Source: a virus (taxonomy: Duplodnaviria > Caudoviricetes). Taken from it: a DNA stretch of 51,729 nucleotides. Below are positions 1,126 through 51,052 of the stretch, one piece after another. Position 1 is the first letter of the stretch; each line of letters starts with the position of its first letter. The notes beneath the pieces are model-generated. The model made no database searches and was not told the DNA's origin. It saw nothing but the letters and a program-made list of their open reading frames with translations. The DNA is taken from positions 1-51,729 of the IMG/VR virus record IMGVR_UViG_3300049893_000693; one strand, given 5' to 3'. The translations under genes and the position numbers were made by a program.

Positions 1126-1197
1126 CTACGCCTTTCCTGGCTATAACAGGCTAGGAATGGCAACAACACCAACCCTATCCAACCATAGAGGTATGAT

Positions 1198-1494
1198 GTG
1201 CTAGTCGTAACCATCCAACCAGTCGAATCAAAGCGGCAGTCGTGGCGAAGTACAGACCAGGAAAATAAGGAGCGGTCCATCTTCACCACCACCGTCAAAA
1301 CATGCACAGTAGAAGAGTTGGAACTGCCTCTCGTCCTCGACCGACGCCCCATGTGGCACTATGTTGAGCGCAATGGCCGCGTTAGCACATTCCATGGATC
1401 CACGCAATTCACAGTCACCATCTACACGTTAGACGACGAGGATATAATGAAGATCCAGCTAGTCGCAGGATTGACAGGATACGACACGCCATGA
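1198..1494 (+). CDS. Hypothetical protein
   Basis: GAGGT SD, GTG start, ATGA overlap with next ORF. Confidence 0.6.
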   Translation: MLVVTIQPVESKRQSWRSTDQENKERSIFTTTVKTCTVEELELPLVLDRRPMWHYVERNGRVSTFHGSTQFTVTIYTLDDEDIMKIQLVAGLTGYDTP

Positions 1495-1751
1495 TCTACA
1501 CCCTCCAAGCCACACCAGATGAAGTGCGGTCATATAAGACATGGGCGCGTAATACGTGCCGTACGCCGGGGGATAGAGTGTTTAGGCACAAGCCACTCAC
1601 GCAAGAACAGCGCGATAATTTGCAAGTATCCAATTCATTGTTCTGGCCATACATATGCCACGGCGATCTGTCCAGTTTTCATTACTGTGTAGGTATGGGA
1701 TGGCTATACTATCTGACGGCGTGGTCATTAGAAGACACTCCACCTACATAA
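1491..1751 (+). CDS. Hypothetical protein
   Basis: Coupled ATGA start, AGGA SD. Confidence 0.55.
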   Translation: MIYTLQATPDEVRSYKTWARNTCRTPGDRVFRHKPLTQEQRDNLQVSNSLFWPYICHGDLSSFHYCVGMGWLYYLTAWSLEDTPPT

Positions 1752-1782
1752 CCACAACCAACCCGATCCAGAAAGGATCTAT

Positions 1783-1956
1783 ATGCGCATCATTCCCTGT
1801 ACCTGTACCCACCAATTCCAAGACGAACGCTACGGAAAAGGTATGCGTTTGCATAATGAAACCATGAAAGGTGAAAAAGAAAATCGGCAGTATCGCTGCA
1901 CAGTCTGCCGTACATTGCACACGAAAAATACTCCAGGATCGAGAGCAGTCGCGTAA
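1783..1956 (+). CDS. Small putative Zn-binding phage protein, 57 aa (not in ORF track)
   Basis: AAAGGA SD; MRIIPCTCTHQFQDERYGKGMRLHN...YRCTVC. Confidence 0.7.
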   Translation: MRIIPCTCTHQFQDERYGKGMRLHNETMKGEKENRQYRCTVCRTLHTKNTPGSRAVA

Positions 1957-1981
1957 GACAACCCGTACAATAGGACTAACC

Positions 1982-2179
1982 GTGAAACATATCATCACTG
2001 TATCTATATGCGGCGGATTCCAAGACTATAAGGAAACATTCACATACCGCACGGAGGCTGCGGCCAAAACTAAAATGGCCCAACTAAGGGAGACAGGAGC
2101 TATGTGGGTGGAGTACAAGATAGTTGGGAGCGAGAGGGTAATATTCTCTGGACCCCTTATATGCGATAAGACCGAGTAA
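1982..2179 (+). CDS. Hypothetical protein
   Basis: AGGA SD before GTG 1982 within ORF 1871..2179. Confidence 0.55.
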   Translation: MKHIITVSICGGFQDYKETFTYRTEAAAKTKMAQLRETGAMWVEYKIVGSERVIFSGPLICDKTE

Positions 2180-2188
2180 GACAGTCGT

Positions 2189-2215
2189 ACATAGCACTAT
2201 CTCATAGTGCTATGT
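2189..2215. other. Perfect 12-bp hairpin ACATAGCACTAT-CTC-ATAGTGCTATGT
   Basis: Inverted repeat read directly. Confidence 0.8.
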
Positions 2216-2301
2216 TAGCCTAGCCTTACATCGTATCGCAGGCAGCGGGCAATAACACCCGCTTGTATCTAGCCTAAACGCTAGATTTCCAGGAGGCCAT
2301 C

Positions 2302-2550
2302 ATGGCCAAGCTCATCGTCACCGCCACCAACAAGAACGGCCAGACCCTCGCGGCTGACCAGTTCCTCGCCATCTACAAGAAGGCGGAAGGTGGCCTGTTC
2401 ACCGGCAACAAGACCTATCCCACGGTCGTTGCCGCCATCCGTGCGAATGACGCCGCTGTTGGCGCCATCCGTGTGGATGACTGGCTGGCTCTGGCCAAGG
2501 AGGGAGGCATTGGCAACATCAATGCGGCCCTGGCCTCGTATTGCGGGTAA
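2302..2550 (+). CDS. Hypothetical protein, 82 aa, probably highly expressed
   Basis: AGGAGG SD; codons strongly biased to C/G in third position. Confidence 0.8.
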   Translation: MAKLIVTATNKNGQTLAADQFLAIYKKAEGGLFTGNKTYPTVVAAIRANDAAVGAIRVDDWLALAKEGGIGNINAALASYCG

Positions 2551-2622
2551 TGCCCGCAAACCCAACGCACAGGGTAGCGTCAAGCTAAAGTGCCGGTCTA
2601 GCCCCACGATACGGGGCCTTAT

Positions 2623-2653
2623 CAAGCTACATAGCTAGTTGCTATGTAGCTTG
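2623..2653. other. Perfect 13-bp hairpin CAAGCTACATAGC-TAGTT-GCTATGTAGCTTG
   Basis: Inverted repeat read directly. Confidence 0.8.
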
Positions 2654-2682
2654 TCCAGTCCATACCAACCTATGGAATCACT

Positions 2683-4758
2683 ATGCCACTCAATCCAAAT
2701 ATGCGCTACCGTGATCGCCTGGGTCGTATTCATGGCCCATTTGTACCGCTATGGCAGCAATTACTTCATGATCCAGAACATAGGCGACAGCATTCTCCCC
2801 AATCCGATCGGCAGATGCGCGAAGATATACAAGAGGATCTCGTATCTACACCAGAACAATTAGCTAGACGATGGACAGAGGGACAAGTATCGTGGACTAT
2901 TACATCCGCGCATACATATTGGGGTGGTCGGCGTTTGCCAGACCTGTCAACATACAACTTAGACCTCGATAATCCCATACCAGTCAACCATCTCTCACTT
3001 GAATCCGATCCATTCCAATACGTTCCAAACCTTTCTACCCAATACGGTCTACCCCTTTCTACCCAACCCTCTTCAAATACGGAGAGCACTATGCCCGCCC
3101 CAATCCAAGTCCGTTTCGTTCCCCCACCCAGCAACGTGCCAGCCAATGCGCGGTGCGACGAAATAGGATGTATAAATCCTATTCGTGTGCGGTTCATCAA
3201 CTGCCTTGAAGACGACAAGGTATTCTATGTGTGCAAGGAGCACGGTTACCGCACCATGGCGGCACCGTTTGAGTACCGTGAAGACCTCGACGCGGTGCTG
3301 CTGTATCCATTCTACAAAGGAGACAAGCCTGTTACCAAGGCTGAGTATGAAGCGGGTACGGCGGTGTGCCCAAATTGCGGTGATCGCGTCGATGCTGCCG
3401 CACTCACCATGCCAGCACCGCAAGGCGCACTGGTGTATTCTGGCCCGCCAATCTGTCCATCGTGCCAGTCTAACTGGTTTACCACATGCCATGGATGTGG
3501 CGTGGCAATGTTGCGCAATCAGGATAATCCTGATGATAGACACTGTCCGGCTTGCGCAAGGTATCGGATCTTTGGCTCGAAGCGGCGTCCTACGCCCGTT
3601 TTCTTCAAAGCCAGCGAAGCCGATGATGCTCGCTTCACTGGCGCAGAGATCGAGTTGGAGCTTGATGGTGCATTCTCACGGGAAGAGGTGACACGCAAGC
3701 TCCTCGAACCCCTGCCTGTCGGCCTCATCCATGCAGAGGAAGACGGATCTCTCAATTATGGCGTGGAGTATGTCACCATGCCCTTGAGTGCCTCGTACAT
3801 CAACCAGAACATTGACCTGTTCCGTAAGTTCTATGACACGGCGCAGGAATACGCCAATCCGGCCAACACACGTAACAATGCTGGCTTGCATGTGCATATG
3901 TCTCGCGCTGCGATCCAGCCGAATGAAGCAGTGAAAATGGAGGAGCTTGTCACCAAGCCCGGCCTCATGCAGCGGTGGCTGCTGCATCTCACTCGTCGCA
4001 GTCCTGATCGGTTCGCTCATTGGGCGAACGCCAGTCCCGATCCTGTGGTGTTGGACACCCTGGCTCGTGGAGCACGGCCCAACGTATCGCGGTATCGCTT
4101 CCTCAACTGGCAGCCTAAGGCCACAGTCGAATGTCGCGGCTTTGCTGGCGATACGGACTTCGAGCACTTCCTTACGGCGACACAATTCGTCCGGGCTTTG
4201 CATGACTTCACCAAGTCAAGTGAGTTCGACCTGAAATGCACGGCGTTCCGTCGCTTCATCCAGAATAGTCAGTACGAAGTGCTGGCCAAGATGGATGCCA
4301 AGTTCGTCGATTCGCGTGGTTCCAATACCATCAAGGCCCAGCTCGCGCCAGGACATTTCAACCATAAGGGACATGGATACTACCTCAAGGCTGAGCCTAG
4401 TGTGTATGATGAAGCCGGATTGTGTGGGTTGAATCGTAGCAAATACGCCTCGGTCTTCGACAATCGCATGCACATTTCGCATGCCAAGCAGACCATACAC
4501 GATCCAGTCACTAATGCGACCTATATGTACTCATCTGGCACGCCAGTCGAGGTTATCCAGACGAACATCGAAGTCGGCAAAGCGCTGTCCATCACCACGA
4601 ATCGTGAACGTGTCCTCGAAGAAGCGCGAGACTACGCCAACTCGCAGCGCATTAAGTTCGGCTCTACCTGCTTCTATGTTGGGGCTTATGTGTTCAACCA
4701 GTTGGAACAGTTGCACACGATGGGTCTCATGTCAAACGAACCTAGCATGGCCGAATAA
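2683..4758 (+). CDS. Putative amidoligase (COOH-NH2 ligase, glutamine synthetase-like fold) with N-terminal Zn ribbons
   Basis: Motifs GAEIELE, EEDGSL..GVEYVT, AGLHVH, YRFLN, TVECR; CPNC/CPSC/CHGC/CPAC pairs; alternative start at 3091 with GGAG SD. Confidence 0.85.
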   Translation: MPLNPNMRYRDRLGRIHGPFVPLWQQLLHDPEHRRQHSPQSDRQMREDIQEDLVSTPEQLARRWTEGQVSWTITSAHTYWGGRRLPDLSTYNLDLDNPIPVNHLSLESDPFQYVPNLSTQYGLPLSTQPSSNTESTMPAPIQVRFVPPPSNVPANARCDEIGCINPIRVRFINCLEDDKVFYVCKEHGYRTMAAPFEYREDLDAVLLYPFYKGDKPVTKAEYEAGTAVCPNCGDRVDAAALTMPAPQGALVYSGPPICPSCQSNWFTTCHGCGVAMLRNQDNPDDRHCPACARYRIFGSKRRPTPVFFKASEADDARFTGAEIELELDGAFSREEVTRKLLEPLPVGLIHAEEDGSLNYGVEYVTMPLSASYINQNIDLFRKFYDTAQEYANPANTRNNAGLHVHMSRAAIQPNEAVKMEELVTKPGLMQRWLLHLTRRSPDRFAHWANASPDPVVLDTLARGARPNVSRYRFLNWQPKATVECRGFAGDTDFEHFLTATQFVRALHDFTKSSEFDLKCTAFRRFIQNSQYEVLAKMDAKFVDSRGSNTIKAQLAPGHFNHKGHGYYLKAEPSVYDEAGLCGLNRSKYASVFDNRMHISHAKQTIHDPVTNATYMYSSGTPVEVIQTNIEVGKALSITTNRERVLEEARDYANSQRIKFGSTCFYVGAYVFNQLEQLHTMGLMSNEPSMAE

Positions 4759-4818
4759 GCCATACTCATCTTACGTATTAAACCTCCTCATTCAACTTCC
4801 TCCAACCAAGGAAATCTC

Positions 4819-5817
4819 ATGTGTATCATCGTCTTTGTACCTCACGACTCTCAACGCCCGTCACTTGACACGCTTCGTCAGTGTTGGACTTCCAATCCTG
4901 ACGGAGCGGGCCTGATGTGGTCAGATGGTGAGCATCTGCTCCATGTCAAGGGGCTTATGACGTTGGACCACTTCTTCGATGCGTGGGATAAAGTCCCGCC
5001 CGGCGTGGCAGTAGCAGCGCACTTCAGGATTCGCTCACATGGCGCGTCCAATGCTGCCATGACGCATCCATTCATCCTGAAGGGTGGCACCATCGGGGTA
5101 ATGCATAATGGTATGATTGCCGACACTGGCTCCACCCATGGCTCCGAATTGTCTGATACGGCCATGTTCGTGAAGGATGAATTGGATAAATTGCCTCATG
5201 AATGGGAATGCAATGAAACTATCAGACGATTCCTGGCTTATCGTATTGGCGCAGGCTCAAAGCTGGTCTTCATGCGCAATGACGGCGTGGCGTGGTTCAC
5301 GAACGAGAGTGCTGGTGTATGGCATGAAGGAGTGTGGTATTCCAATACCTCCTTTCGCGTGACACGAGTACGGAGGATAAAGGCATGGAATGGGTATGGA
5401 AGCTCGTATTATGACGATGATGATCGGGACATGCCTAAGCACACGGCTTCAAAGTTTGTGGCGTTTGGTGTCAAGGATGACGAAGAGAAGTACGGCTCAG
5501 TTGTGACTGGCTCGACCAAAGGGATATTCTGGAACATGCCAGCAGGCCGATGGTGCCGAGCCGTGCAGTCTGGTAAGGGCTGCATGTTGTATGACTGGGA
5601 TTCGACTCTCCAACGATTCGTCGTGTCTGGCTACGCCGAATGGAGTAGCGTTAATAAGATGAAACCAGCATCTGGTGAAGAGAACATCTCTAGTTCAGTG
5701 GCCCGCGATCATTTCCATATTCCAGAATGGTGGGCGGAAGAGGTAGATAAGGACGATCCGGTTACGACTGCGGGCCACTTGCCTTATTCGTCATCCAACC
5801 CAGGACTCCATGTGTGA
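4819..5817 (+). CDS. Class II (Ntn-hydrolase) glutamine amidotransferase
   Basis: N-terminal MCII (Cys nucleophile), NPDGAG, HFRIRSHG, HPF, MHNG, SDT, YSN. Confidence 0.9.
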   Translation: MCIIVFVPHDSQRPSLDTLRQCWTSNPDGAGLMWSDGEHLLHVKGLMTLDHFFDAWDKVPPGVAVAAHFRIRSHGASNAAMTHPFILKGGTIGVMHNGMIADTGSTHGSELSDTAMFVKDELDKLPHEWECNETIRRFLAYRIGAGSKLVFMRNDGVAWFTNESAGVWHEGVWYSNTSFRVTRVRRIKAWNGYGSSYYDDDDRDMPKHTASKFVAFGVKDDEEKYGSVVTGSTKGIFWNMPAGRWCRAVQSGKGCMLYDWDSTLQRFVVSGYAEWSSVNKMKPASGEENISSSVARDHFHIPEWWAEEVDKDDPVTTAGHLPYSSSNPGLHV

Positions 5818-6526: not shown

Positions 6527-6726
6527 CCATGTGCGCCGCTCTATGCGCCAGGAGTCGTCATTGCTATAGGCATGAGGATTCTGGCACCGAGCCTAATCCT
6601 GGGCGTCAGTCCTACTTTATGGGTAATCCCTGTATTGACTCATACGAGTGTTATGTGTCAATATCGACTATCCCGACTGAGCGATTGACCAAGAAGTCTA
6701 AACGTGAGGATACGCGCAATGACTAA
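6514..6726 (+). CDS. Small Cys-rich phage protein
   Basis: MPDITMC...C.....CYRH...QSYF...C pattern; AAGGA SD. Confidence 0.65.
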   Translation: MPDITMCAALCARSRHCYRHEDSGTEPNPGRQSYFMGNPCIDSYECYVSISTIPTERLTKKSKREDTRND

Positions 6727-7308: not shown

Positions 7309-7311
7309 TCT

Positions 7312-7584: not shown

Positions 7585-7644
7585 TTCATTACTGATTCGA
7601 CTTATCTTGCTGGCCCAACCCACCACCATTTCCAAAAGACTCCC

Positions 7645-9987
7645 ATGCCCGAAACACTCGACCACGTTGCAGTACAACGATATATCGCCTCGGCTGGAAA
7701 TGACCTATGTCGAATTGCGCATGATAAAGCGTTGTGGGTTTCGCCTGATGATGAGGACGCATGTACGGCCTTGGATAAGCTGACGGCTTCAGTTGCCGAC
7801 CGATGGAACCCTGACAGACCACTGTCCCCATTTACGGTAGAGGTACTGACCCGCTTCATCCAGCTTTGCCCGACATTCGACCTCATACGAACACAGCATG
7901 ACACCGACCAGGACGAGTTTCACTGGGCCTGGGTGCGCCTCGTGTTCGCTGCTGCGGGGTATGAGGCGCACGGCCCTCTGGCTAGTGCGGCTTGCATGCT
8001 GTACCCCCAATGCCCCTTGTCAGTTTCAGAGAGTCGCGACGAGTGGTTGAGTGCCCTCGACTCAGCACACCGTACTTGTGGTTGGCCTGTTACGGTGGCC
8101 TTTCTACCCTGGAAGGCACTCGTTCGCGCTCTCCCTTATGTTGAACGTGACGAATATATCCCATCCACATTCGGTCGCGCTATCGCCCTACTTCACGCAT
8201 TGAAGCATGTCCGAATTGACCATGGCGAAGATAACCCACAATTCATTGTGTCATTCGGTGGGGTATCCAGCTTTGCCGCGACACGTAATAGCGCAGGTAT
8301 CCTCAGCGAGATGCGAGATACCATGTCAGCCATCACCACCATGTTAGGATACTATGGATCAAGTACTGAGAAATCCCAGTCACCGCTTCGCATTTGCTGG
8401 CGATCGCTCGCCAACCGACTTACCGCAGGGAGTTTCTTGCCTCGCCGTCCTATTGCCCAACTGCCCGGATATGTTCTGGCCGGACCCTGGTCAACAGTGG
8501 TTCCGACAACCGACACAGGACGATTCGCGCAGACTGGTCTTAGGCTGGATGGTGTATGGCTCGCCAAGGATGGTCGCATTGCCGAATATCACGGCGATGA
8601 CGAAGATGTTGTCACCTACTCCTGGAATATCAAGAATCACACGATTTTCAATACAGATCGTACACGATTCGTAAATGGTCTGCCCGAAACCTACACGGTA
8701 GGCGAGTATCCGGCTGACTTGTGGGCTAACTACTTCCCCAATCTGGATGAAGCACACTTCCCCTCGCCGCTGCATAAGCATGCATTCAGATCCCTGGTAG
8801 ACTCAATAGTTGTATCCTCCTTCCTTGTCGATGAGTTCCAGCAGTTTACTGGCGAAAAGCCTATGTTACTCTGCTTCCCCCAATCCCCGGAGATAGAAAG
8901 TTGCACAAACCAAGGCAAAACGACTGCGGCGCTGGCTATAACACGGGCCATTGTCCCTGGTATCACCCAACCAGTGAGTCTGATGACAGGTGCGTCAGCA
9001 CCGGATCAGAGGTCATTTGCCCAGCAGCTATTGCGCTACGGTACGGCCTGCATCGACGAATGGTTCCCTACCGCGAAGGACGGCCATGTCCTGAGCAACC
9101 GGAACCTCCAAGCTGCGATGACGGGCGGGAGGCTGACGATCGGCCTAGCAGGCGAGAATGCCCCTGGTGTGTCGTTACGGTATAGCCTGACCGCATCATG
9201 TAAGGCTGGCGATTTCCCCCCGGATTTGGTCAATCGCGTCATTCCAGCCTTCCTCGGCCCCCTCCCGGAAACCTCTAGGACTGGCGTAAGTGGAGATAAG
9301 CTGACCAGTGGACAGGCCAGCCTGGAGATACGACTTGCTGCGCTGCACTACATTGATTCGACCGACTTAGTAGAGTATCTAAGGTCTTGTGCCAAACCAA
9401 CTAACGCCTGGCGATACCCATGGCATCTGGCTGTAGCTACTCACATCTGCGCTACCCGGACTGGTCTGCCTATCTCAGAGGTTGAGCATGCGGTTGCCGA
9501 AGCTGTGAAGCTCATGGCTATCCGCATGCTTGACCACGCCAAGATCGCTGAAGAGTCCGGCCTCCTCACTCAGTTGCGTGAGGGTGTACATATCGAACTG
9601 CCTATTCGCGCCTTCTTCGACAACCTGACGGACGTGGATCTGCTTCAGCTAGTCCATTTGGCCGAGCCGCACGGTTCGACCATTGGTGGCGTGCGCTGGC
9701 TCACGGCATCTAGTCTGGTGAGAGCGCGCAAAGAGGCTCATGGCACTAATCGGGCTGGCGTCCTACTTGAATCAATCACCGGCCTTCGCGCTGGTATTAC
9801 TGACCGATCACTTGCACGAACCTTGCTCGTAGATGTACGTAAGACTATGAAGCCTGATGAAGCCGTGCCGCTTCCAGGCACATCATATCAGTTACGCCGA
9901 TCCTCCGAGGCTATGGAACAGCAATACGACAACAAGGTGTGGTTAAGGATCGAACCACGCCAACCAGTTAAACCAACAACGCTCTAG
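7645..9987 (+). CDS. Divergent P-loop NTPase, probable replicative helicase or primase-helicase
   Basis: Walker A-like NQGKTT, Walker B ACIDE; directly upstream of the DNA polymerase. Confidence 0.6.
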   Translation: MPETLDHVAVQRYIASAGNDLCRIAHDKALWVSPDDEDACTALDKLTASVADRWNPDRPLSPFTVEVLTRFIQLCPTFDLIRTQHDTDQDEFHWAWVRLVFAAAGYEAHGPLASAACMLYPQCPLSVSESRDEWLSALDSAHRTCGWPVTVAFLPWKALVRALPYVERDEYIPSTFGRAIALLHALKHVRIDHGEDNPQFIVSFGGVSSFAATRNSAGILSEMRDTMSAITTMLGYYGSSTEKSQSPLRICWRSLANRLTAGSFLPRRPIAQLPGYVLAGPWSTVVPTTDTGRFAQTGLRLDGVWLAKDGRIAEYHGDDEDVVTYSWNIKNHTIFNTDRTRFVNGLPETYTVGEYPADLWANYFPNLDEAHFPSPLHKHAFRSLVDSIVVSSFLVDEFQQFTGEKPMLLCFPQSPEIESCTNQGKTTAALAITRAIVPGITQPVSLMTGASAPDQRSFAQQLLRYGTACIDEWFPTAKDGHVLSNRNLQAAMTGGRLTIGLAGENAPGVSLRYSLTASCKAGDFPPDLVNRVIPAFLGPLPETSRTGVSGDKLTSGQASLEIRLAALHYIDSTDLVEYLRSCAKPTNAWRYPWHLAVATHICATRTGLPISEVEHAVAEAVKLMAIRMLDHAKIAEESGLLTQLREGVHIELPIRAFFDNLTDVDLLQLVHLAEPHGSTIGGVRWLTASSLVRARKEAHGTNRAGVLLESITGLRAGITDRSLARTLLVDVRKTMKPDEAVPLPGTSYQLRRSSEAMEQQYDNKVWLRIEPRQPVKPTTL

Positions 9988-9994
9988 GGGGACG

Positions 9995-14864: not shown

Positions 14865-15749
14865 ATGGGTCTCGCCGACGCAGCCAAAAAGGCTGTCCCT
14901 TCCCCCTCACCCGCTAAACCCGCTGAGGTTCCGAAGGAGGCGCCCACTACGGCCCTTTCGGTTCCAGCCGCTGGCATCATGGCCGTGATTAGTGCCGCCG
15001 ATGCTGGTCAGGGTTTGCAATTCCCCCTGCTCATGGTGGCTGGCGGCGCTCAGGGCGGTACAATCGCTCCGCACAAGTCCGTCCCCCCTGAAATTGCTAA
15101 TTCCATGCCCCAGGGTAAGATGCCGATTGAAGGCATCTTCATCGGTCTCAGGACTGATCTGTCGTCCTGGCCGACTGGATATGACGACCGTGATCCGAAC
15201 GCCGAACAGCAACCGCTGTGGAGTGTGGCGGTGTCTGCGCACGATCAGGTTGGCGCACTGGCTGTGCAGGACGCATGTAAGCAGTACCAGTTCACCAAGA
15301 AAGACGACAAGGCGATTTTCGACGCGGCTAAGTCGGGTGTTGGGCACATCAAGCCCACTCTACAGATGCTCGTGTGGAGCAAGATGTTGGGCGATCTGGT
15401 GGTTGTGCAGTCACCCGCCTCGTACGAGTCCTGGATTGAGGGCTTGCGCGGCATCATGCGGCTGGCCGATCCTCAGACTGGCGCACTGAATCAGTTCCCC
15501 ATGTCCATGCGTATCACCTCAGTTCCCAGGTCGTCTAAGGCCGGTAACTCCTGGCTGGTGCATGTGTTCAGCGTGGACGTGGCTCCGAATGCGACGGGCG
15601 TGGAAATGATGAACACCTTCAAGGCTTGGCGGGCTGGACTGCCGGAAGAGAAGGTGAAGCAGGTTAACGAATGGCTCGCGGCGTCTGACCGTCCGATGAT
15701 GCCCAACATCATGGAGGCGCTGACCAAGGCGAAGACACTCAGGGCCTAG
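14865..15749 (+). CDS. Replication-module protein, possibly ssDNA-binding
   Basis: AAGGA SD, biased codons, position between helicase and Cas4-like nuclease; function inferred from synteny only. Confidence 0.45.
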   Translation: MGLADAAKKAVPSPSPAKPAEVPKEAPTTALSVPAAGIMAVISAADAGQGLQFPLLMVAGGAQGGTIAPHKSVPPEIANSMPQGKMPIEGIFIGLRTDLSSWPTGYDDRDPNAEQQPLWSVAVSAHDQVGALAVQDACKQYQFTKKDDKAIFDAAKSGVGHIKPTLQMLVWSKMLGDLVVVQSPASYESWIEGLRGIMRLADPQTGALNQFPMSMRITSVPRSSKAGNSWLVHVFSVDVAPNATGVEMMNTFKAWRAGLPEEKVKQVNEWLAASDRPMMPNIMEALTKAKTLRA

Positions 15750-15789
15750 AACCGGACTAGGACGTAAACCACCCAAGCCTCTACGTATT

Positions 15790-15889
15790 GTTGAGAATAC
15801 GAATGCTCAACCCGGGTGCCGCACCGTAAGGCGGCGGGCGTATACGGTTTCCAATTACGCCGTCTGACCCCACGTTACGGGGTCTTTAT
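15790..15889 (+). ncRNA. Run of four hairpins upstream of the tRNA-like element; the last is terminator-like
   Basis: GTTGAG/CTCAAC; GCCG..CC-GTAA-GG-CGGC (GNRA loop); GGCGTA/TACGCC; GACCCC/GGGGTC followed by TTTAT. Confidence 0.45.
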
Positions 15890-15890
15890 G

Positions 15891-16001
15891 GGTCACATCG
15901 TCTAATTCTTCGGCCTAGTATAACGCGTTGAAGAGCCGAAACGGTTAAGTTCCAGCGATAACATGCTGGCGATGTGGGTTCGAACCCCACTGTGACCCCC
16001 A
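15891..16001 (+). tRNA. tRNA-like element with non-canonical anticodon loop and 36-nt D-loop insertion
   Basis: Acceptor GGTCACA/TGTGACC, discriminator C and encoded CCA; T-arm GTGGG-TTCGAAC-CCCAC; stem CCAGC/GCTGG with 8-nt loop GATAACAT. Confidence 0.8.
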
Positions 16002-16017
16002 CCCTCTAAGGAGCATC

Positions 16018-16122
16018 ATGGCTAAACTAAAGACACCACGCCGAAAACCCCCGGCGCATGAAATCTCTACTAAACGTGTGCTAGGCAAGGGCTGGCGTAA
16101 AGGTTCGCGTCATGCCAGATAA
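16018..16122 (+). CDS. Small Arg/Lys-rich peptide, 34 aa (not in ORF track)
   Basis: AAGGAG SD; MAKLKTPRRKPPAHEISTKRVLGKGWRKGSRHAR; overlaps next start. Confidence 0.6.
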   Translation: MAKLKTPRRKPPAHEISTKRVLGKGWRKGSRHAR

Positions 16123-17329: not shown

Positions 17330-17911
17330 ATGGACCATCCAGAGTTTAAGGGGTGGCCGTCTATCCAGCGGCTCTCCTCTGAAACCATGTATATCACGGA
17401 GAAAATAGATGGGACAAACGGTATTATTCACGTATCAGAATCCGGGACGGTACTCGCTGGTTCACGGAATAGATGGCTGTCGCAGCCGGATGGATCACCA
17501 CCATCCAGTAAATCGGACGATAATTTTGGTTTTGCCCAATGGGTCTACGAGAATACAGACGGTTTGCGAAGACTTGGACCAGGGTATCATTACGGAGAAT
17601 GGTACGGTTCAGGTATCCAACGTCGATACGGGTTATCGACGCGACAGTGGTGCAACTTTGCGTATTATAGAACGGACAGTGACGTGGTTTGGCAACAGGT
17701 TCCACTTCTTTACTCAGGCCCTTTCTCGCCCGAGGCCATCACTGAATGCGTGGAACGGCTCAGATCCACTGGGTCCGTCCTTGTACCAGGATTCATGGAC
17801 CCCGAGGGAGTAGTCGTAACCTTCAAGCATATTCCAGGCAAGTTCAAGAAGTTCTGCAAGAATGACGCGCTCCACAAGTTCCAGCAGGCGGATGCATGCC
17901 AAACACCCTAG
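17330..17911 (+). CDS. RNA ligase (Rnl2-like nucleotidyltransferase domain)
   Basis: TEKIDGTN (motif I), GSRNR, GEWYG.GIQ, PEGVVV, C-terminal KK. Confidence 0.85.
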   Translation: MDHPEFKGWPSIQRLSSETMYITEKIDGTNGIIHVSESGTVLAGSRNRWLSQPDGSPPSSKSDDNFGFAQWVYENTDGLRRLGPGYHYGEWYGSGIQRRYGLSTRQWCNFAYYRTDSDVVWQQVPLLYSGPFSPEAITECVERLRSTGSVLVPGFMDPEGVVVTFKHIPGKFKKFCKNDALHKFQQADACQTP

Positions 17912-18435
17912 ACCATGAAGTATGGATCGGAGTTGTGGGGTATGAAGGACGATACTCCGTATCGAACTTAGGTAATGTACGCCGCGAGAACCATACTATC
18001 GTACGCCGCGACGGCGTACCGCAGAGTTACTCTCAGCGACCAATGCTTCCGGTTATCCGAGAGGATGGTAGGTATGATGTCGTAATTGGTGGGCGTAGGC
18101 AGCGTATAGCCCATTTAGTTGCTCGCGCTTTTCTCGGCCCGCGCCCGAATGGGTATGTAGTTAGTCATAAGGATGGGAACAAAACGAATGATAGGTTGAC
18201 AAATCTAGCCTATATGTCTAAATCACAAAACCAGACTAATGTCGCGGATGGCCTACATAAACATAATACTTCTGGCTATCGTGGTATTACTTTTAGTAAA
18301 GGGCAGAACATCTGGCGCGGGGTCGTTGTGGTAGAAGGTAAACGATACGGCAAATCAAGTGTAAACAAAGAGGTCGTAATAGCGTGGCGTAAACATATGG
18401 AACAAAAATACCGACTAGACCAGAGGATAGCATGA
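17896..18435 (+). CDS. NUMOD4-HNH homing endonuclease
   Basis: EVW..V.GYEGRYSVSNLGNVR; HKDGNKTND...NL; NTSGYRGI. Confidence 0.9.
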   Translation: MPNTLDHEVWIGVVGYEGRYSVSNLGNVRRENHTIVRRDGVPQSYSQRPMLPVIREDGRYDVVIGGRRQRIAHLVARAFLGPRPNGYVVSHKDGNKTNDRLTNLAYMSKSQNQTNVADGLHKHNTSGYRGITFSKGQNIWRGVVVVEGKRYGKSSVNKEVVIAWRKHMEQKYRLDQRIA

Positions 18436-19136
18436 AACCAACCCTACTGATCTCCGATCTGCACCAGCCGCATACACACCCGGACGCTTTAGCCTTCTTA
18501 TGTAAGGTACGCGATACGTATCGAACAACCCAAACTATTTGTCTAGGAGATGAGGCAGATGGCCACGCCATATCTTTTCATACTCCAAACCCGGATCTAC
18601 GCTCACCAGGAGACGAACTAGAAGCCGCAAAGCAGGGGTTACGTAAGTTTCACGCAGAGTTTCCTCGCATGCGCTTATGTGAATCAAATCACGGTTCTCT
18701 GTACTATCGTCGGGCGATTGAGCACGGATTACCTCGCGCAGTCCTACGCAATTACGAGGAAATCTACGGTCTGCGCGGATGGAGTTGGCACCACGAAATT
18801 GTCGAAACCGTTGGTGATGGTATTCCGATTGTATTACGTCATCAATTCGGTTCTAACACAAAAACAGCTTTAGCCCGAGCGGGAGGAACCTGCATTGTAC
18901 AAGCACATTACCACTCTTCGGCAGATTGCGTATGGTATAACAGTCCTCGTGGCCGTCTGTTTGGCCTTACAGTTGGGTGTCTTATTGACTCTGCTGGCCT
19001 TGCCTTTGCTTACAATCGTCTCGATCTGGCGCGGCCTATCCTCGGTTGCGGCGTCATTGTGGACGGGCTGCCGATATTTGTTCCGATGTGGTTGACCAGC
19101 CGGGGTCGCTGGACCGGGCGGGTAAGCCATGCTTAA
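18432..19136 (+). CDS. Calcineurin-like metallophosphoesterase
   Basis: ISDLH.P, LGDEAD, SNH, AHYH. Confidence 0.9.
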   Translation: MKPTLLISDLHQPHTHPDALAFLCKVRDTYRTTQTICLGDEADGHAISFHTPNPDLRSPGDELEAAKQGLRKFHAEFPRMRLCESNHGSLYYRRAIEHGLPRAVLRNYEEIYGLRGWSWHHEIVETVGDGIPIVLRHQFGSNTKTALARAGGTCIVQAHYHSSADCVWYNSPRGRLFGLTVGCLIDSAGLAFAYNRLDLARPILGCGVIVDGLPIFVPMWLTSRGRWTGRVSHA

Positions 19137-42034: not shown

Positions 42035-42036
42035 GG

Positions 42037-42648: not shown

Positions 42649-42654
42649 GGCGCA

Positions 42655-42683: not shown

Positions 42684-42687
42684 CCTA

Positions 42688-43072: not shown

Positions 43073-43085
43073 GGAGTTCTCCTGG

Positions 43086-43403: not shown

Positions 43404-43413
43404 GGCGGGTCCT

Positions 43414-46617: not shown

Positions 46618-46630
46618 GTTTTACCTGCTA

Positions 46631-47242
46631 TTAGCGGACGTTAGCAGGAACGATATTCGCAATCGCCGCACCGTTCTTCAGGAAGTCAGTAGCCTTGATG
46701 GTGTAGACGGTATTGGCCGTCAGATTACCACCAGTATGCTGCACAATAGCATTGGGGTCAGGGATGATAATCTCAAGCCACTTACCGGCAGCCAGAGTAT
46801 CGCCAGTCGTGATGCCGGTGCCGTTGATCTTCCACTCACCAGCGCCGGGAGTCGCATCTGAACCCTTACGCAGAAGCAGGGTCGCATCGACTTCCATGCC
46901 GCGCTCTTCAGGCAGCACAAGCGCGATAGCCTGGAGGTAGTTGGCCGCAGTGATCGAGGCATCAGCGGTGGTCGGATAGGTCACGCCAGTCGGAGCGGTC
47001 GGGAGAGTGAAGGTCGTCGCCGAGCCGTCACACTTGAACCGGAACACGCGCTGGGGCGAATTGATACGACCGGGGTGATTGACACCATACAGAGTGGCCG
47101 CGCCGGGCGACCAGACAGTCAAACGCTGATCGGACGTAAACGCGCGAATACGCCGATTGAACGCGGCGCTAGTAGCGCCAGTGGCAGTGAGGGAGAGCGT
47201 GAGAGCAACGGGATTGGTGCCCACACCAGTGTTAAGAGCCAT
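46631..47242 (-). CDS. Probable virion structural/decoration protein
   Basis: AAGGAGG SD; T/A-rich beta protein; biased codons. Confidence 0.6.
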   Translation of the reverse strand: MALNTGVGTNPVALTLSLTATGATSAAFNRRIRAFTSDQRLTVWSPGAATLYGVNHPGRINSPQRVFRFKCDGSATTFTLPTAPTGVTYPTTADASITAANYLQAIALVLPEERGMEVDATLLLRKGSDATPGAGEWKINGTGITTGDTLAAGKWLEIIIPDPNAIVQHTGGNLTANTVYTIKATDFLKNGAAIANIVPANVR

Positions 47243-47309
47243 GACGGCCTCCTTATTTGGCGGGGCGTGCCCGCGAGTGATACCGCTGGCTATAGCCTAC
47301 GGCACCGTC

Positions 47310-47337
47310 ATGCTACAGTCCAGGATAGATATGCAAG
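47310..47337 (-). promoter_or_regulatory. Putative late promoter CTTGCAT-N15-TAGCAT
   Basis: Shared motif in an intergenic gap. Confidence 0.45.
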
Positions 47338-47349
47338 CACTAATTTACA

Positions 47350-47580
47350 TTAGTCAACTAATTTAACCAGGAGGATCTGGTACCCTGGTATTACCTCATC
47401 AGCCTTGCGTTTTATGCCTGCACCAAAGTAGAGCCACATTTGTCCATCATGTCGTTGGTACGCCTTCCACTCCCGGTACTGCTTGTACTGCTGAGAGGAC
47501 AGCACGATGTAGACACCATGCTTGTTCACGACAGGCTTGGCCCCTTGGGGTAGTTCGATAGTCCTCCACTCTGCGGCCAT
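47350..47580 (-). CDS. Hypothetical protein
   Basis: GGAGG SD; TAATG coupling to terminase. Confidence 0.65.
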   Translation of the reverse strand: MAAEWRTIELPQGAKPVVNKHGVYIVLSSQQYKQYREWKAYQRHDGQMWLYFGAGIKRKADEVIPGYQILLVKLVD

Positions 47581-49148
47581 TACTTCCTCCGCATCTTATA
47601 CGCCGACCCGTTGAGTCGCCTGAACGGTGCCTCATCGTTTCGGGTGATGTCGCTCGTACGGGCGATCATGTACTCGTGGGTCCAAATCTTACGACCATCC
47701 TTATCGCGCGTCTCATCTGGCCCTTCTGGCTCTTTTGGCTTAGGCGGGGGTATCACGTCCATGTCGAGGGCCAAGAACCCATTAGCCAGCGCGTCTACAA
47801 GATCGTCCTCACCCTCTGACTCTGGCATGAACTGAAGCAGTTGGGGCTTTAATGTATGGGTGTAGAAATCACCTTCGGGGAAAAAGACTTGTCCAGCCTC
47901 CATACGCGCCCGAAAAGCGTGGGCGTGGACGTGTTTTGCGGCAGTTCTACTGTGCCTAGATAGCGAAACATACCACTTTTGCTTGGACATTTCAGCCCTA
48001 AACACGGGTTCCAGAGTGGACTGAATCGGCCCCTTTTCAGTAGCCAGGACCCTAGATTTTAGGGTTTTAGCGAGTTTTATGGTCTTTTCTACTGAGTCGA
48101 GTGACTCGAACCGCCCATAATGGATGGTAGGGTGGATATAGACATTCCCCTTATGGTCCACTCCCAGCGCCACCACGGCGGTATGGTCGGCTGTGGTCTT
48201 GGTAGACACAGCGTAGTCAGCCGCGACGAGCCACCGCAACTCAGTATCTTCAGGCAGGGTCTGGTATGTACGGAAGTGCTTGGCTTGGAAGAACCCGCCC
48301 TCTTCGATATACGGGCTACACTGATACATAGAGGCCCACACCCTAGGCGGGAGGGACTTCTTCAGCATAGCGGCTTCAGATGCTGGGTATCGCTCTGGAT
48401 GCAGTACCTCGCCCTTCTTCCGATACAGTTCGTCTACCTTGGCTTCCTCGGGGAACTCGTAGACAATCCAGTTCTCGTGAGAATGGTCTCTAAGAACGCG
48501 TCCAATAAGGTCGTCCACATGCCAGCGTGTGGCAGTAATGATAACACCACCGCCAGGATGAAGGCGAGTGCGAGCGACAGAATTATACCACTCACCAGCG
48601 CGATCTCGAATAAGCTGAGAATCAGCATCTTGCTGATCTTTGCAATAGTCGTCAATACAGAGGATGTGCGCGCCCATGCCCGTGAGCGCACCTCCAATGC
48701 TTGTGGATTTATACATGCCTCCGAGCTTCGTACGAACGAAGTCTGCGGCATTGGATCGGGGGTCGAGTTTGACATCGAATAGGTCCTGATATACGGGGTT
48801 ATTGAGGAGTTCACGGACTTCGCGCCCAAAGCCGTCGCTGAGGTCCTGCCCATATGTAGCAGTGATCCACTCCCACTCAGGATGCTTGGCCAGGACGTAG
48901 GGGGGCAGCTTGCGCGACACGATTTCAGACTTGCCACGGCGCGGCGGGCAGGTGAGAATGAGCCTAGGCGACTTCTTCTGCTCTACGCCTAGGATGAAGT
49001 CGTCAAGCAGTTCACACAGCCGGGTATGGAACCAGCCAGCCTTGTACTCACGGTGGAACAGTTGGATGAACGGCAACAGGGACCGTCTGGCCATCTCCCG
49101 GTTAAGGAGTTCCAGATCCAACGCCGCCACCATCTCATTGTGGTCCAT
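47580..49148 (-). CDS. terL: Terminase large subunit
   Basis: PPRRGKS Walker A, LCIDD Walker B, TRWH.DDL.G, YQ..P, AAD.A, DDLVDA nuclease motif. Confidence 0.97.
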   Translation of the reverse strand: MDHNEMVAALDLELLNREMARRSLLPFIQLFHREYKAGWFHTRLCELLDDFILGVEQKKSPRLILTCPPRRGKSEIVSRKLPPYVLAKHPEWEWITATYGQDLSDGFGREVRELLNNPVYQDLFDVKLDPRSNAADFVRTKLGGMYKSTSIGGALTGMGAHILCIDDYCKDQQDADSQLIRDRAGEWYNSVARTRLHPGGGVIITATRWHVDDLIGRVLRDHSHENWIVYEFPEEAKVDELYRKKGEVLHPERYPASEAAMLKKSLPPRVWASMYQCSPYIEEGGFFQAKHFRTYQTLPEDTELRWLVAADYAVSTKTTADHTAVVALGVDHKGNVYIHPTIHYGRFESLDSVEKTIKLAKTLKSRVLATEKGPIQSTLEPVFRAEMSKQKWYVSLSRHSRTAAKHVHAHAFRARMEAGQVFFPEGDFYTHTLKPQLLQFMPESEGEDDLVDALANGFLALDMDVIPPPKPKEPEGPDETRDKDGRKIWTHEYMIARTSDITRNDEAPFRRLNGSAYKMRRK

Positions 49149-49528
49149 TACGCTACTCTCGCCACGGACTTGATGAAGGAGGTAGGAATCATGAATCTGC
49201 CTTGGGTTTGGGTGTCAGCCGCGATGGACTGGGCCAGGGTGATGAAGTCAGGCTTCTGGTCAATAAGGAATCCTACCGATACGATCTCTACTGGTCGGAC
49301 TTGCTTGGAGTCTTCCATATCCTTCCACGCTGGCTCATCTGGCGCGTCGTCCTGCGTCGCGTCGAGCCATGTAATACGTACGACTTTATATACGGACTTG
49401 GGCGGCTGCGACTTGCGCAGCTTTGGCGGCTGCTTCGTCGCGGAGCTTGATGAGGTCGGCGAGCGGGAGACTCTTGAGCACTTGCGATTTGCGAGCGATT
49501 TCGTCAAGGGAGGATGATGATGGCGCAT
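49148..49528 (-). CDS. Small conserved phage protein (W.DA...SVG.L type); start uncertain
   Basis: VRITWLDA, VSVGFLI, ITLAQS, IP..FI; TAATG coupling to terL. Confidence 0.65.
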   Translation of the reverse strand: MRHHHPPLTKSLANRKCSRVSRSPTSSSSATKQPPKLRKSQPPKSVYKVVRITWLDATQDDAPDEPAWKDMEDSKQVRPVEIVSVGFLIDQKPDFITLAQSIAADTQTQGRFMIPTSFIKSVARVA

Positions 49529-49754
49529 CGGTTGCCTTTGCTTGTGGAACGGTTTTGTCGGTGAGGTACTTCAGCGCGTCATAGCGCATCTGTGGGGTGG
49601 CTGGGGTAGCGTCTGGCGTAGGATGGCCGTGGCTGTCGAGGATAGGCATGGTACCAGTCAGCGCGATCTGCGTAAGCATACGTATGAAGGCTTCGGTTGG
49701 AAGCGACATACGCAGCGATTCGAACGACTGCATGGTGGTTGGGATTATTGGCAT
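49386..49754 (-). CDS. Possible terminase small subunit
   Basis: Position upstream of terL; helical, RYDALKYLTDK motif. Confidence 0.4.
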   Translation of the reverse strand: MPIIPTTMQSFESLRMSLPTEAFIRMLTQIALTGTMPILDSHGHPTPDATPATPQMRYDALKYLTDKTVPQAKATDAPSSSSLDEIARKSQVLKSLPLADLIKLRDEAAAKAAQVAAAQVRI

Positions 49755-50254
49755 GGATCAGGGTCCAATACTATTGGTTCGGCTGGGTCGGGCGTGCTAG
49801 AGGAGTCTGGAGAGTTAGACGTGGCTGGCTTGTCGGGCACACGACTGTAGCCTGGATTGGGTATGGTGGATGGTAGGACTGGGGTACGGTTGAGCACGAC
49901 TACCCGCTCTGCCGACAGCAGTTTGGCATGGGCCTGGACCGAGCGGTTGTACTCTACCATGCACTGGTGCACGATCTGCCACATCTTATCTAACAAGGCA
50001 GTCGGCTCTGCGAAGGCGGCGTGTGGGATGGGGTCGGTGTTGTCTGCCAGGGCGTACCGCTGTAGGTTGCGGAGTGCGAGTTCGTACAGATTACGGTACT
50101 GGAGAAGGATTTGCAGGGCAGGTTGATCTGGCGGGGCGAACATGGTCTTACCCGCGCCGAATAGGATAACTTTGAATGAAGCGGCGACTTTAGATAGGGA
50201 TGCCTCGGTGCGATCCTCCACTTCAGGTATCATCATACGCGGCAATTTGGGCAT
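49745..50254 (-). CDS. Hypothetical first late protein
   Basis: ORF; ATG 50254 lies 7 nt after a -10-like element. Confidence 0.6.
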   Translation of the reverse strand: MPKLPRMMIPEVEDRTEASLSKVAASFKVILFGAGKTMFAPPDQPALQILLQYRNLYELALRNLQRYALADNTDPIPHAAFAEPTALLDKMWQIVHQCMVEYNRSVQAHAKLLSAERVVVLNRTPVLPSTIPNPGYSRVPDKPATSNSPDSSSTPDPAEPIVLDPDPCQ

Positions 50255-50261
50255 GCTAGGC

Positions 50262-50290
50262 AGCATTGCAACGATCGGGGGGATTGCAAG
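50262..50290 (-). promoter_or_regulatory. Putative late promoter CTTGCAA-N15-CAATGCT
   Basis: Shared motif at the head of the late operon. Confidence 0.5.
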
Positions 50291-50328
50291 CCAAGTATAG
50301 CCAAAATGAGCTATACTCGGCTAGACTT

Positions 50329-50359
50329 AGTTAGACTTGGCTGGACTTATTAGGTGTTA
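50329..50359. repeat. 10-bp periodic repeat GCTAGACTTA / GTTAGACTTG / GCTGGACTTA
   Basis: Read directly. Confidence 0.75.
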
Positions 50360-50532
50360 CAACCTCATACTAGTTCAGATTTTGATCCGCGCGGTATTGA
50401 GGCCGTGTTAAGTACGCCCAGCCGCCCGGCTCGACTAACCCCCCGGCGTACCCCACCCCTGACCAGTCTGACCAGCCCCAATAGCTTGTATGGTGTCATT
50501 ATTGACACACTATGGGTAGGACGTGTGACGTA

Positions 50533-51052
50533 TGAGGGTATTATGGATAGCGACAACAAAGCGCGGCGGGCTGGACGGAAGCCCGACGTACCGATCGGAG
50601 AAATCCCCCGACAACAAGGGGGCGGGGTATGCCTCAAACCTGGGCTTACTCTGTGGTCCGACCACGGGAACGGTGCTGCGCCTTCGAGACTTGCGGCGGG
50701 TTCTAAACCGCCACATCGTCTGATCCCTGCCCTAGGCTGACAGTGCTTTACTGCGGCACGATACCCTAGGGACAGTGCGACCGGTAGTCATGGTGATTGC
50801 CAGACGGTCGCACAAGGCACACTAGGGCGGAACGCTCGTCCTAGTCCTAAGTCCTGCAATCCCGTGCGCGGGATTGGTGCAAGCCGTCCGGTGAACGGCA
50901 TCGCTAGACAATCGCATCCCTAGGAAACCCTCGTACCGTCCGAACGGTGCTCGCAAGCCCTAGGGTTTGACGAGTCCGAATGGCTTAGGACACTCAAGCC
51001 TAAGCCTTTCGATGCTCGCCAATCCAGGCAAGCCCTATGCGCCAACCGCGCA
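50533..51052 (+). ncRNA. Candidate large structured non-coding RNA or early leader
   Basis: About 12 consecutive stems with G-U pairs on the + strand; no convincing ORF. Confidence 0.65.

What the first reader, a model, noticed from the sequence alone, without database searches (positions are those of the whole stretch)
1136..50622. Recurring hairpins with 8-nt AYAACA loops link the early intergenic regions, the tRNA-like element and the large RNA
Seen: five unrelated stems all close an 8-nt loop containing A(T/C)AACA on the + strand: CCTGGC-TATAACAG-GCTAGG (1136-55), TGG-CAACAACA-CCA (1158-71, short stem), AGCGGG-CAATAACA-CCCGCT (2244-63), CCAGC-GATAACAT-GCTGG (15952-69, the anticodon arm of the tRNA-like element) and CCCCC-GACAACAA-GGGGG (50605-22). 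Another GACAACAA sits at 50552, and ATAACG lies in the D-loop insertion. All are non-coding. A variable stem with a conserved loop is the signature of a protein- or RNA-recognised site (established analogues: lambda boxB/N, CsrA GGA loops). Inference: a phage RNA regulon or decoy system, with the tRNA body acting as a stable scaffold that displays the loop.
Basis: partly seen in the sequence, partly recalled or inferred. Interest (0 to 1): 0.82.

Follow-up and report, generated by a model that had tools for sequence, protein, structure and literature searches.

The report
Early-leader RNA hairpins sharing AYAACA loops
Several small hairpins between the early genes of an uncultured phage carry the same A-rich loop sequence somewhat more often than chance predicts, but the only related phage does not repeat the pattern, so a shared control system is possible rather than shown.

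Summary
Four of the five are real, stable + strand hairpins: 1134-1157, 2244-2263, 15952-15969 and 50605-50622. The 3-bp one at 1158-1171 does not form in the folded spacer. A sixth copy lies in coding sequence at 8933-8950.

The count is above chance. Five occur on the + strand against 0.42 in shuffles and none on the - strand. After correcting for the motif having been chosen after the fact, p is about 0.001 to 0.02, or 0.26 if loop length is left free.

The only close relative (G001, about 68% nt identity) keeps hairpin 3 within a leader of the same hairpin layout with different stem sequences. Its loop is AAUACA, so the strict hexamer is lost. G001 has no recurring AYAACA loops and no tRNA-like element. 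I found no RNA-binding protein and no RNA data.

Best reading (0.45): separate cis-acting hairpins in early mRNA leaders plus the anticodon arm of a degenerate tRNA. The shared hexamer would then come from A/C-rich unpaired leader sequence and after-the-fact selection.

A real loop-recognition set stays open (about 0.3). The T4 gp43 translational operator is a close analogue in form. The tRNA-scaffold decoy idea has no direct support.

The parts
1134..1157 (+). Hairpin 1: TTCCTGGC-TATAACAG-GCTAGGAA. In the fold it is a 9-bp stem with a 6-nt AUAACA loop. It contains G.U pairs that exist only on the + strand. The loop ends 49 nt before GTG 1198.
1158..1171 (+). 'Hairpin 2': TGG-CAACAACA-CCA. It is unpaired A/C-rich spacer in the fold of the whole intergenic region. 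It shares GGCAAYAACACC with hairpin 3.
2180..2301 (+). Structured leader of gene 2302-2550: a 12-bp hairpin, a sequence-conserved middle block, hairpin 3 and a fourth hairpin, followed by the Shine-Dalgarno sequence. G001 has the same layout with different stem sequences.
   Evidence: (z -4.89)
2244..2263 (+). Hairpin 3: AGCGGG-CAATAACA-CCCGCT. The loop ends 45 nt before ATG 2302. The G001 counterpart is GUGGU-AAUACA-ACCAC.
2302..2550 (+). Gene for an 82-aa protein (P0001) of unknown function. It is the first early gene shared with G001. Three further relatives are known as proteins only.
8933..8950 (+). Extra copy inside a coding sequence: TGGCT-ATAACACG-GGCCA.
15891..16001 (+). tRNA-like element. 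It scores 25.3 bits against Rfam tRNA (gathering score 29). It has a 43-nt insertion in the D region and an encoded CCA. ARAGORN does not call it, and G001 lacks it.
15952..15969 (+). Hairpin 4: CCAGC-GATAACAT-GCTGG, the anticodon arm of the tRNA-like element. The loop ends 54 nt before ATG 16018.
50550..50564 (+). GACAACAA copy flanked by only a 3-bp GCG/CGC stem. It is weak.
50605..50622 (+). Hairpin 5: CCCCC-GACAACAA-GGGGG. It lies in a stretch with no excess structure and inside an unsupported ORF.

Best explanation
The hairpins are real RNA-level structures on the + (early) strand, but they are a mixed set and not one system.

- Hairpins 1 and 3 are secondary hairpins in strongly folded intercistronic leaders of the early operon. 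Each follows a 12-bp perfect hairpin and precedes the ribosome-binding site of the next gene by 45-49 nt. They most likely act in cis on stability, processing or translation of the downstream cistron. This role is inferred.
- Hairpin 3 is one of four hairpins of a leader whose layout is kept in the related phage. This is shown.
- Hairpin 4 is the anticodon arm of a degenerate, insertion-bearing tRNA gene that the relative lacks. This is shown.
- 'Hairpin 2' is unpaired spacer.
- Hairpin 5 is an isolated GC clamp in a region that is not otherwise structured.

On this reading the shared AYAACA comes from three things: the A/C-rich, G-poor make-up of unpaired early-leader sequence, some paralogy between leader modules (GGCAAYAACACC in 2 and 3; AGCGAYAACA in 4 and at 50553), and the motif having been picked after the hairpins were read.
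For: - Leaders 1069-1197 and 2180-2301 fold far better than shuffles (z -6.62 and -4.89), and each holds several hairpins.
- The G001 leader folds into the same four-hairpin layout with different stem sequences and conserved single-stranded blocks.
- In G001 the strict hexamer is lost at the homologous hairpin (AAUACA). No 8-nt AYAACA loop recurs among its intergenic hairpins.
- G001 has no tRNA-like element.
- Loop size and motif register differ among the copies. Hairpin 1 folds with a 6-nt loop and 9 bp. In hairpin 3 the motif sits at loop positions 3-8, against 2-7 in hairpins 1, 4 and 5.
- Hairpin 2 is not formed.
- AYAACA ranks only 132nd of 25,746 degenerate hexamers by count in intergenic DNA. 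CWAGCC, CAARCC and CCMACC are commoner.
- Early spacers share other repeated modules.
- With loop length left free, 105 of 400 shuffles match the observed maximum. For pentamers, 130 of 1000 do.
- No RNA-binding domain was found in the 30 early and middle proteins scanned, nor in the 10 large ones.
Against: - The enrichment survives several corrected nulls: 6 of 400, 5 of 300 and 2 of 300, and 6 of 5000.
- 5 of 6 intergenic + strand AYAACA sit in hairpin loops, against about 13% elsewhere (10 of 75 on the other three strands).
- By the strict definition, A-rich G-free hexamers as a class sit in loops only 10 of 44 times, and seven of those ten positions lie in the AYAACA hairpins themselves. 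Composition alone therefore does not explain the placement.
- At the one comparable locus the stems differ while the loop stays nearly the same, AAUA(A)CA.
- Three copies lie 45-54 nt before a start codon.
Confidence: 0.45

Rival explanations
1. The loops form a real recognition set. One trans-acting factor, a phage early protein or a host RNA-binding protein, reads the xAYAACAx loop on a short stem about 45-55 nt upstream of the start codons of several early cistrons. It represses or times their translation, as in the T4 gp43 translational operator. The tRNA-like element shows the same loop and could compete for the factor.
For: - Corrected statistics.
- The pattern is confined to the + strand, and hairpin 1 has G.U pairs.
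- Hairpins 1, 4 and 5 share motif register and a C-G closing pair.
- Loop-to-start distances are 49, 45 and 54 nt.
- The loop is nearly kept in G001 while the stem differs.
- The other hairpin of the G001 leader carries UUAACAC.
Against: - No candidate binding protein was found.
- The polymerase here is family A, and no such hairpin precedes it; the gap before 9995 is 7 nt.
- G001 has no recurring motif.
- The motif register is shifted in hairpin 3.
- Hairpin 5 is 440 nt from the next supported gene.
- All statistics were computed after the motif was chosen.
Confidence: 0.3
2. The loops mimic an anticodon arm and act in defence or counter-defence. The tRNA-like element and the leader loops would be substrates or decoys for an anticodon-loop nuclease or an ACA-type mRNA interferase. 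The phage's own RNA ligase and phosphoesterase would reseal the cuts.
For: - An RNA ligase (PF09414 E 2.1e-10; phrog_548 E 4.5e-23) at 17330-17911 and a metallophosphoesterase (phrog_221 E 6.2e-48) at 18432-19136 lie 1.4-2.5 kb downstream of the tRNA-like element.
- G001 lacks both the ligase and the tRNA-like element.
- Phage tRNAs that counter tRNA-targeting defences are in print: PMC10264068 and PMC11555353, seen as search listings with the first lines of their abstracts only.
Against: - The co-occurrence rests on a single genome.
- No nuclease target motif was tested.
- The element scores below the tRNA threshold and has no usable 7-nt anticodon loop.
- Nothing links the mRNA leader hairpins to nuclease attack.
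- That MazF-type toxins cut at ACA is recalled, not checked.
Confidence: 0.08
3. The hairpins work at the DNA level, as extruded single-strand hairpins that serve as promoters or origins (as in N4 early promoters) or as protein-binding palindromes.
For: - Variable stems with a shared loop resemble N4 hairpin promoters (recalled, not checked).
- The hairpins lie upstream of early genes.
- Three very large late proteins have no known function.
Against: - No RNA polymerase was recognised in the 1534-, 1397- and 1067-aa proteins by Pfam, PHROGs, PDB sequence search or Atlas features.
- Hairpin 1 depends on G.U pairs, which would be C.A mismatches on the other strand.
- The loops are 6-8 nt, not 3 nt.
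- One copy is the anticodon arm of a tRNA-like gene.
Confidence: 0.05

Closest known systems
Translational operator of T4/RB69 DNA polymerase (gp43)
   Same: A short hairpin upstream of a start codon. The review passages describe an 18-base hairpin-loop about 40 bases upstream, with -UAAC- in the loop and -CAAC- as the SELEX variant (PMC3014915). Here hairpins 4 and 5 are 18 nt (5 bp plus an 8-nt loop). All copies hold UAAC or CAAC. Three lie 45-54 nt before a start codon.
   Different: The T4 site is a single autoregulatory site in front of a family B polymerase gene. Here there are four to five sites, none in front of the polymerase, which is family A. One site is inside a tRNA-like element. 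No binding protein is known. That the T4 hairpin has a 5-bp stem and an 8-nt loop is recalled; the review gives only '18 bases'.
Lambda boxB / N antitermination sites
   Different: boxB is recalled as a 5-bp stem with a GNRA-like pentaloop next to boxA, lying downstream of early promoters and upstream of terminators. Here the loops are 6-8 nt, no boxA was looked for, and the hairpins lie just after terminator-like hairpins. No N-like protein was identified.
Phage-encoded tRNAs that counter tRNA-targeting defences
   Same: A tRNA-shaped gene in a phage with an unusual anticodon loop. An RNA ligase and a phosphoesterase lie nearby.
   Different: The published cases are working tRNAs with 7-nt loops (PMC10264068, search listing and start of abstract only). 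This element is below the tRNA threshold, has a 43-nt D insertion and an 8-nt loop, and is missing from the relative.
A-rich single-stranded sites for Hfq (ARN/AAN repeats) or ribosomal protein S1 in mRNA leaders
   Same: AAYAACA and ACAACAA read as two A-A-N/A-R-N triplets in unpaired sequence upstream of ribosome-binding sites.
   Different: The resemblance is recalled, not tested. Known sites are longer and need not sit in hairpin loops. The host is unknown.

Membership tests
T4-type gp43 translational operator | Hairpin of about 18 bases with -UAAC- (or -CAAC-) in the loop | tested here: met
   Hairpins 4 and 5 are 5 bp plus an 8-nt loop. Hairpin 3 has 6 bp and hairpin 1 has 8-9 bp. All hold UAAC or CAAC. 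Criterion taken from PMC3014915 passages.
T4-type gp43 translational operator | Lies about 40 nt upstream of the start codon of the regulated gene, with the bound region reaching the ribosome-binding site | tested here: inconclusive
   Loop end to start codon is 49, 45 and 54 nt for hairpins 1, 3 and 4. Hairpin 5 has no supported gene nearby. Contact with the ribosome-binding site cannot be tested.
T4-type gp43 translational operator | The regulated gene is the phage's own family B DNA polymerase, which is also the binding protein | tested here: not met
   The polymerase at 9995-12061 matches family A (PF00476, phrog_17). Only 7 nt precede it.
tRNA (Rfam RF00005) | Score at or above the gathering threshold, with a 7-nt anticodon loop | tested here: not met
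   25.3 bits against a gathering score of 29, with an 8-nt loop and a 43-nt D insertion. ARAGORN finds 0 genes. E-value is 0.51 over the whole window.
Lambda boxB/N nut site | 5-bp stem with a GNRA-like pentaloop (recalled) | tested here: not met
   Loops are 6-8 nt with AYAACA.
CsrA-binding hairpins | GGA in the loop (recalled) | tested here: not met
   None of the loops TATAACAG, CAATAACA, GATAACAT or GACAACAA holds GGA.
N4-type hairpin promoters | A virion RNA polymerase is encoded, and the hairpins have 3-nt loops (recalled) | tested here: not met
   No polymerase was recognised in the large proteins. Loops are 6-8 nt.
   Only one locus is comparable: CAAUAACA against AAUACA, with the stem replaced. 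The other sites have no homologous locus in G001.

The most novel reading that the evidence does not exclude
This phage runs a post-transcriptional circuit in which one factor reads an xAYAACAx loop on at least three early mRNA leaders. A tRNA-shaped RNA carrying the same loop in place of an anticodon titrates that factor. This would be a multi-site, tRNA-buffered version of the T4 gp43 operator principle, with a family A polymerase phage and an unknown binding protein.
Probability: 0.2. Interest if true: 0.75.

Novelty: new member of a known kind. Interest (0 to 1): 0.38.

Why it matters
If the loops are read by one factor, this would be a rare multi-site translational operator set in a phage. 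It would also give a tRNA-derived RNA a role as a competitor, a function not yet assigned to the many odd tRNA-like genes in phage genomes. If they are not, the finding is ordinary: early phage leaders are dense with hairpins, and a shared hexamer in four of them is the kind of coincidence a large scan will turn up. The firmest result here is smaller: a four-hairpin leader in front of a small conserved early gene that keeps its layout while its stems change.

Tried and rejected
- Relatives by DNA: blastn of three stretches against the phage collection found nothing.
- Relatives by terminase: one close relative (G001) and five distant fragments at 21-39% identity, too far to compare spacers.
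- Both metagenome scans found no relative.
- A scan of viral contigs with the P0001 alignment found only G001.
- The conserved leader block used as a DNA pattern hit three unrelated coding sequences, which are chance matches.
- P0001 has three more relatives as proteins, but their DNA could not be fetched.
- The 3' half of the tRNA-like element as a pattern gave 0 hits in viral contigs and 0 in genome contigs. A looser pattern gave one hit that is not a tRNA. The element's ancestry is therefore unknown.
- No RNA holder was listed among sequencing runs. Only one DNA run was listed, which may be the source sample. I did not lay reads.
- Structure of P0001: pLDDT 74.8, with no fold match at E <= 0.001.
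- I looked for a virion RNA polymerase in the three largest proteins and found none.
- A literature search for AUAACA loops in phage found nothing relevant. A search for the recalled T4 loop octamer found only unrelated papers.
-, a null from random coding samples, gave 48 of 300 and 39 of 300. It was flawed because the samples could overlap and count one hairpin twice. One search repeats it without overlap.
- One search counted overlapping hairpins and was replaced.
- The MAFFT alignment misplaces hairpins B and C, so I compared separate folds instead.
- I first placed the start codon after the tRNA-like element at 16009. Translation shows it is 16018.
- Supplementary files of papers were not consulted.
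Full report
WHAT THE WINDOW IS. The window is a whole virus record of 51,729 bases, rated 100% complete. Genes run on the + strand from 187 to 20684 and again from 51063. They run on the - strand from 50266 down to 20681. Recognisable products:
- an amidoligase-like protein, a family A DNA polymerase, an SNF2-type helicase and a large terminase;
- a PD-(D/E)XK nuclease and an RNA ligase;
- an HNH endonuclease and endonuclease VII;
- a metallophosphoesterase.
About 2.8 kb (5.3%) is intergenic by my gene calls.

THE OBSERVATION. All strings are at the stated places. A mechanical scan for AYAACA inside an 8-nt loop closed by 5 or more pairs (G.U allowed) finds five on the + strand and none on the - strand. 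The five are at 1134-1157, 2244-2263, 8933-8950, 15952-15969 and 50605-50622. The strands hold 17 and 16 AYAACA hexamers respectively.

How each one folds:
- The 3-bp 'hairpin' at 1158-1171 does not form when its spacer is folded.
- In that fold hairpin 1 is a 9-bp stem with a 6-nt AUAACA loop closed by U.G.
- Hairpins 3, 4 and 5 do form in the folds of their surroundings.
- Hairpin 1 needs G.U pairs, so it is an RNA-strand feature of the + strand.

IS IT MORE THAN CHANCE?

Naive tests:
- Whole-window shuffles give 0.418 on average, and 1 of 1000 reach five.

The motif was chosen after reading, so I asked how often any hexamer (with at most one two-fold degenerate position) is shared by four non-overlapping hairpin loops in the intergenic DNA:
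- Shuffles: 6 of 400 if the loops must have one length, 105 of 400 if not.
- Non-overlapping coding samples of the same sizes: 5 of 300 (window) and 2 of 300 (G001).
- Taking the 39 stable intergenic hairpins as given and re-dealing their loop letters: 6 of 5000 reach four for hexamers, 130 of 1000 for pentamers.

Placement of the hexamer:
- It occurs 6 times in + strand intergenic DNA against 1.39 expected (4 of 2000 shuffles). It ranks only 132nd of 25,746 such motifs there.
- 4 of the 6 lie in strict hairpin loops, against 10 of 44 for A-rich G-free hexamers as a class.
- By local folding 5 of the 6 do, against 3 of 16, 2 of 23 and 5 of 36 on the other strands examined.

The real intergenic DNA holds more hairpins than the nulls (286 against about 200), which makes those nulls somewhat generous to the finding. 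My reading is a real but moderate excess, with p roughly 0.001 to 0.02 under most nulls. Across a scan of many windows an excess of that size is not decisive.

THE RELATED PHAGE. One close relative exists in the collections, G001 (47,657 bases, 93% complete). It is collinear as a reverse complement at about 63-75% nucleotide identity. Protein identities run from 33% to 86%.
- The early genes 187-2179 and the gene at 51063 have no counterpart, so hairpins 1, 2 and 5 have no homologous locus.
- At the locus of the tRNA-like element, G001 goes straight from the same terminator-like hairpin to the next gene. It has no such element anywhere.
- G001 carries a true tRNA-Arg(TCT) elsewhere.
- The leader of gene 2302 is comparable. 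The single-stranded blocks are nearly identical and the hairpin stems differ. Each leader folds on its own into the same four-hairpin layout.
- Hairpin 3 is AGCGGG-CAAUAACA-CCCGCU in the window and GUGGU-AAUACA-ACCAC in G001. The stem is replaced and the loop is the same apart from one missing A and its ends. The strict AYAACA is therefore lost.
- The first hairpin of the G001 leader has the loop UUAACAC.
- Among G001's intergenic hairpins no AYAACA loop recurs. The best shared hexamer occurs twice.

So the one test of conservation gives a mixed answer, and the 'regulon' is not seen in the relative.

THE tRNA-LIKE ELEMENT AND THE 'LARGE RNA'.
- The element matches the Rfam tRNA model end to end, but at 25.3 bits against a threshold of 29. 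It has a 43-nt insertion in the D region and an 8-nt anticodon loop. ARAGORN rejects it.
- Searches for its 3' half in viral and cellular genomes found no relative.
- It is best called a degenerate tRNA-derived gene. Nothing shows that it displays its loop to anything.
- Hairpin 5 lies in 50480-50700, which folds no better than shuffles (z -0.68). The well-folded part is 50700-51062 (z -4.9 on the + strand, -3.25 on the - strand).
- No Rfam family matches there.
- Hairpin 5 and the copy at 50552 also lie in an ORF with a Shine-Dalgarno-like GAGGG before ATG 50543. I could neither support nor exclude that ORF.

HOW IT MOST LIKELY WORKS.

Shown:
- Hairpins 1 and 3 belong to leaders that fold much better than chance (z -6.62 and -4.89).
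- Each follows a perfect 12-bp hairpin and precedes the next start codon by 49 and 45 nt.
- Hairpin 4 precedes the start of a 34-codon basic ORF at 16018 by 54 nt.

Inferred: these are cis-acting leader structures that set the stability, processing or translation of the next cistron. The shared loop then reflects A/C-rich unpaired leader sequence and partial paralogy of leader modules. Examples are GGCAAYAACACC in copies 2 and 3 and AGCGAYAACA in hairpin 4 and at 50553. Other repeated leader modules appear. I give this 0.45.

The main rival (0.3) is a true operator set. [quoted passage not shown] In form that is very close to what is seen here. It is not the same family: the polymerase here is family A and no such hairpin precedes its gene. 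No RNA-binding protein was found among the proteins scanned.

A decoy or repair reading (0.08) rests only on the RNA ligase and phosphoesterase downstream and on published roles of phage tRNAs (search listing). A DNA-level reading (0.05) is disfavoured by the G.U pairs and by the absence of any recognisable phage RNA polymerase.

VERDICT. The interpretation as a regulon or tRNA-scaffold decoy is not shown, and the one relative partly contradicts it. I rate the novelty as new members of a known kind (leader hairpins, a degenerate tRNA) and the interest as 0.38. The bold reading keeps about a one-in-five chance.

Noticed in passing
window 15866-15884 and 2601-2617; L017 3134-3150; G001 (reverse complement) 15493-15507: The hairpin CCCCACGWTACGGGG sits directly in front of the tRNA-like element in the window. 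In G001 it sits directly in front of a true tRNA-Arg(TCT), at a different locus (L017 3155-3231). The same hairpin also occurs without any tRNA at the reciprocal locus in each phage. The tRNA slot seems to move between two copies of one terminator-like hairpin.
   Followed up: partly
window 17330-19136: An RNA ligase (PF09414, phrog_548), an HNH/NUMOD4 homing endonuclease and a metallophosphoesterase (phrog_221) lie in a row, 1.4-2.5 kb downstream of the tRNA-like element. It looks like an RNA-repair module. The ligase matches only profile positions 3-214 of 341. G001 lacks the ligase and the HNH gene but keeps the phosphoesterase at 75% identity.
   Followed up: partly
window 1174-1192 and 2659-2676: A second recurring loop: two hairpins with a CCAACC hexaloop (CCTAT-CCAACC-ATAGAGG and TCCATA-CCAACC-TATGGA). 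Each lies just before a start codon (1198, 2683), and its 3' arm overlaps the Shine-Dalgarno sequence.
   Followed up: no
window 1098-1125, 2189-2215, 2623-2653, 50294-50317: Perfect 8-13-bp hairpins stand at the head of early spacers, and several share ATAGC/GCTAT in the stem. They may be terminators without a U tract, processing sites or operators.
   Followed up: no
window 2214-2243: A 30-nt block, GTTAGCCTAGCCTTACATCGTATCGCAGGC, is nearly identical in G001 (27 of 30) while everything around it has changed. It folds as a small hairpin but could equally be a promoter or a protein-binding site.
   Followed up: partly
window 16018-16122: A 34-codon, very basic ORF (12 of 34 residues are K or R) with an AAGGAG Shine-Dalgarno sequence follows the tRNA-like element and overlaps the start of the nuclease gene. 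Its start, CATCATGGCNAARCT, coding MAKL, is the same as that of the gene at 2302.
   Followed up: no
window 50700-51062: This non-coding stretch folds far better than shuffles (z -4.9 on the + strand, -3.25 on the - strand). It has no Rfam match, and blastn finds no alignment to G001.
   Followed up: partly
window 28-90: Three 12-nt tandem units (TAGGTNATTTYC) are followed by a perfect palindrome, AGTTTCCTAATATTAGGAAACT, at the left end of the record.
   Followed up: no
G001 (L005-L007), both ends of the contig: Both ends of the G001 contig carry long runs of TCG-rich hexamer repeats (CTCGTA/CTCGCG/CTCGGG), with similar sequence around them. This may be a terminal repeat.
   Followed up: no
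window 15770-15818: A weak match to the Rfam abiF RNA motif (20.6 bits against a threshold of 37, E 0.29) lies in the spacer upstream of the tRNA-like element. It is probably chance.
   Followed up: no
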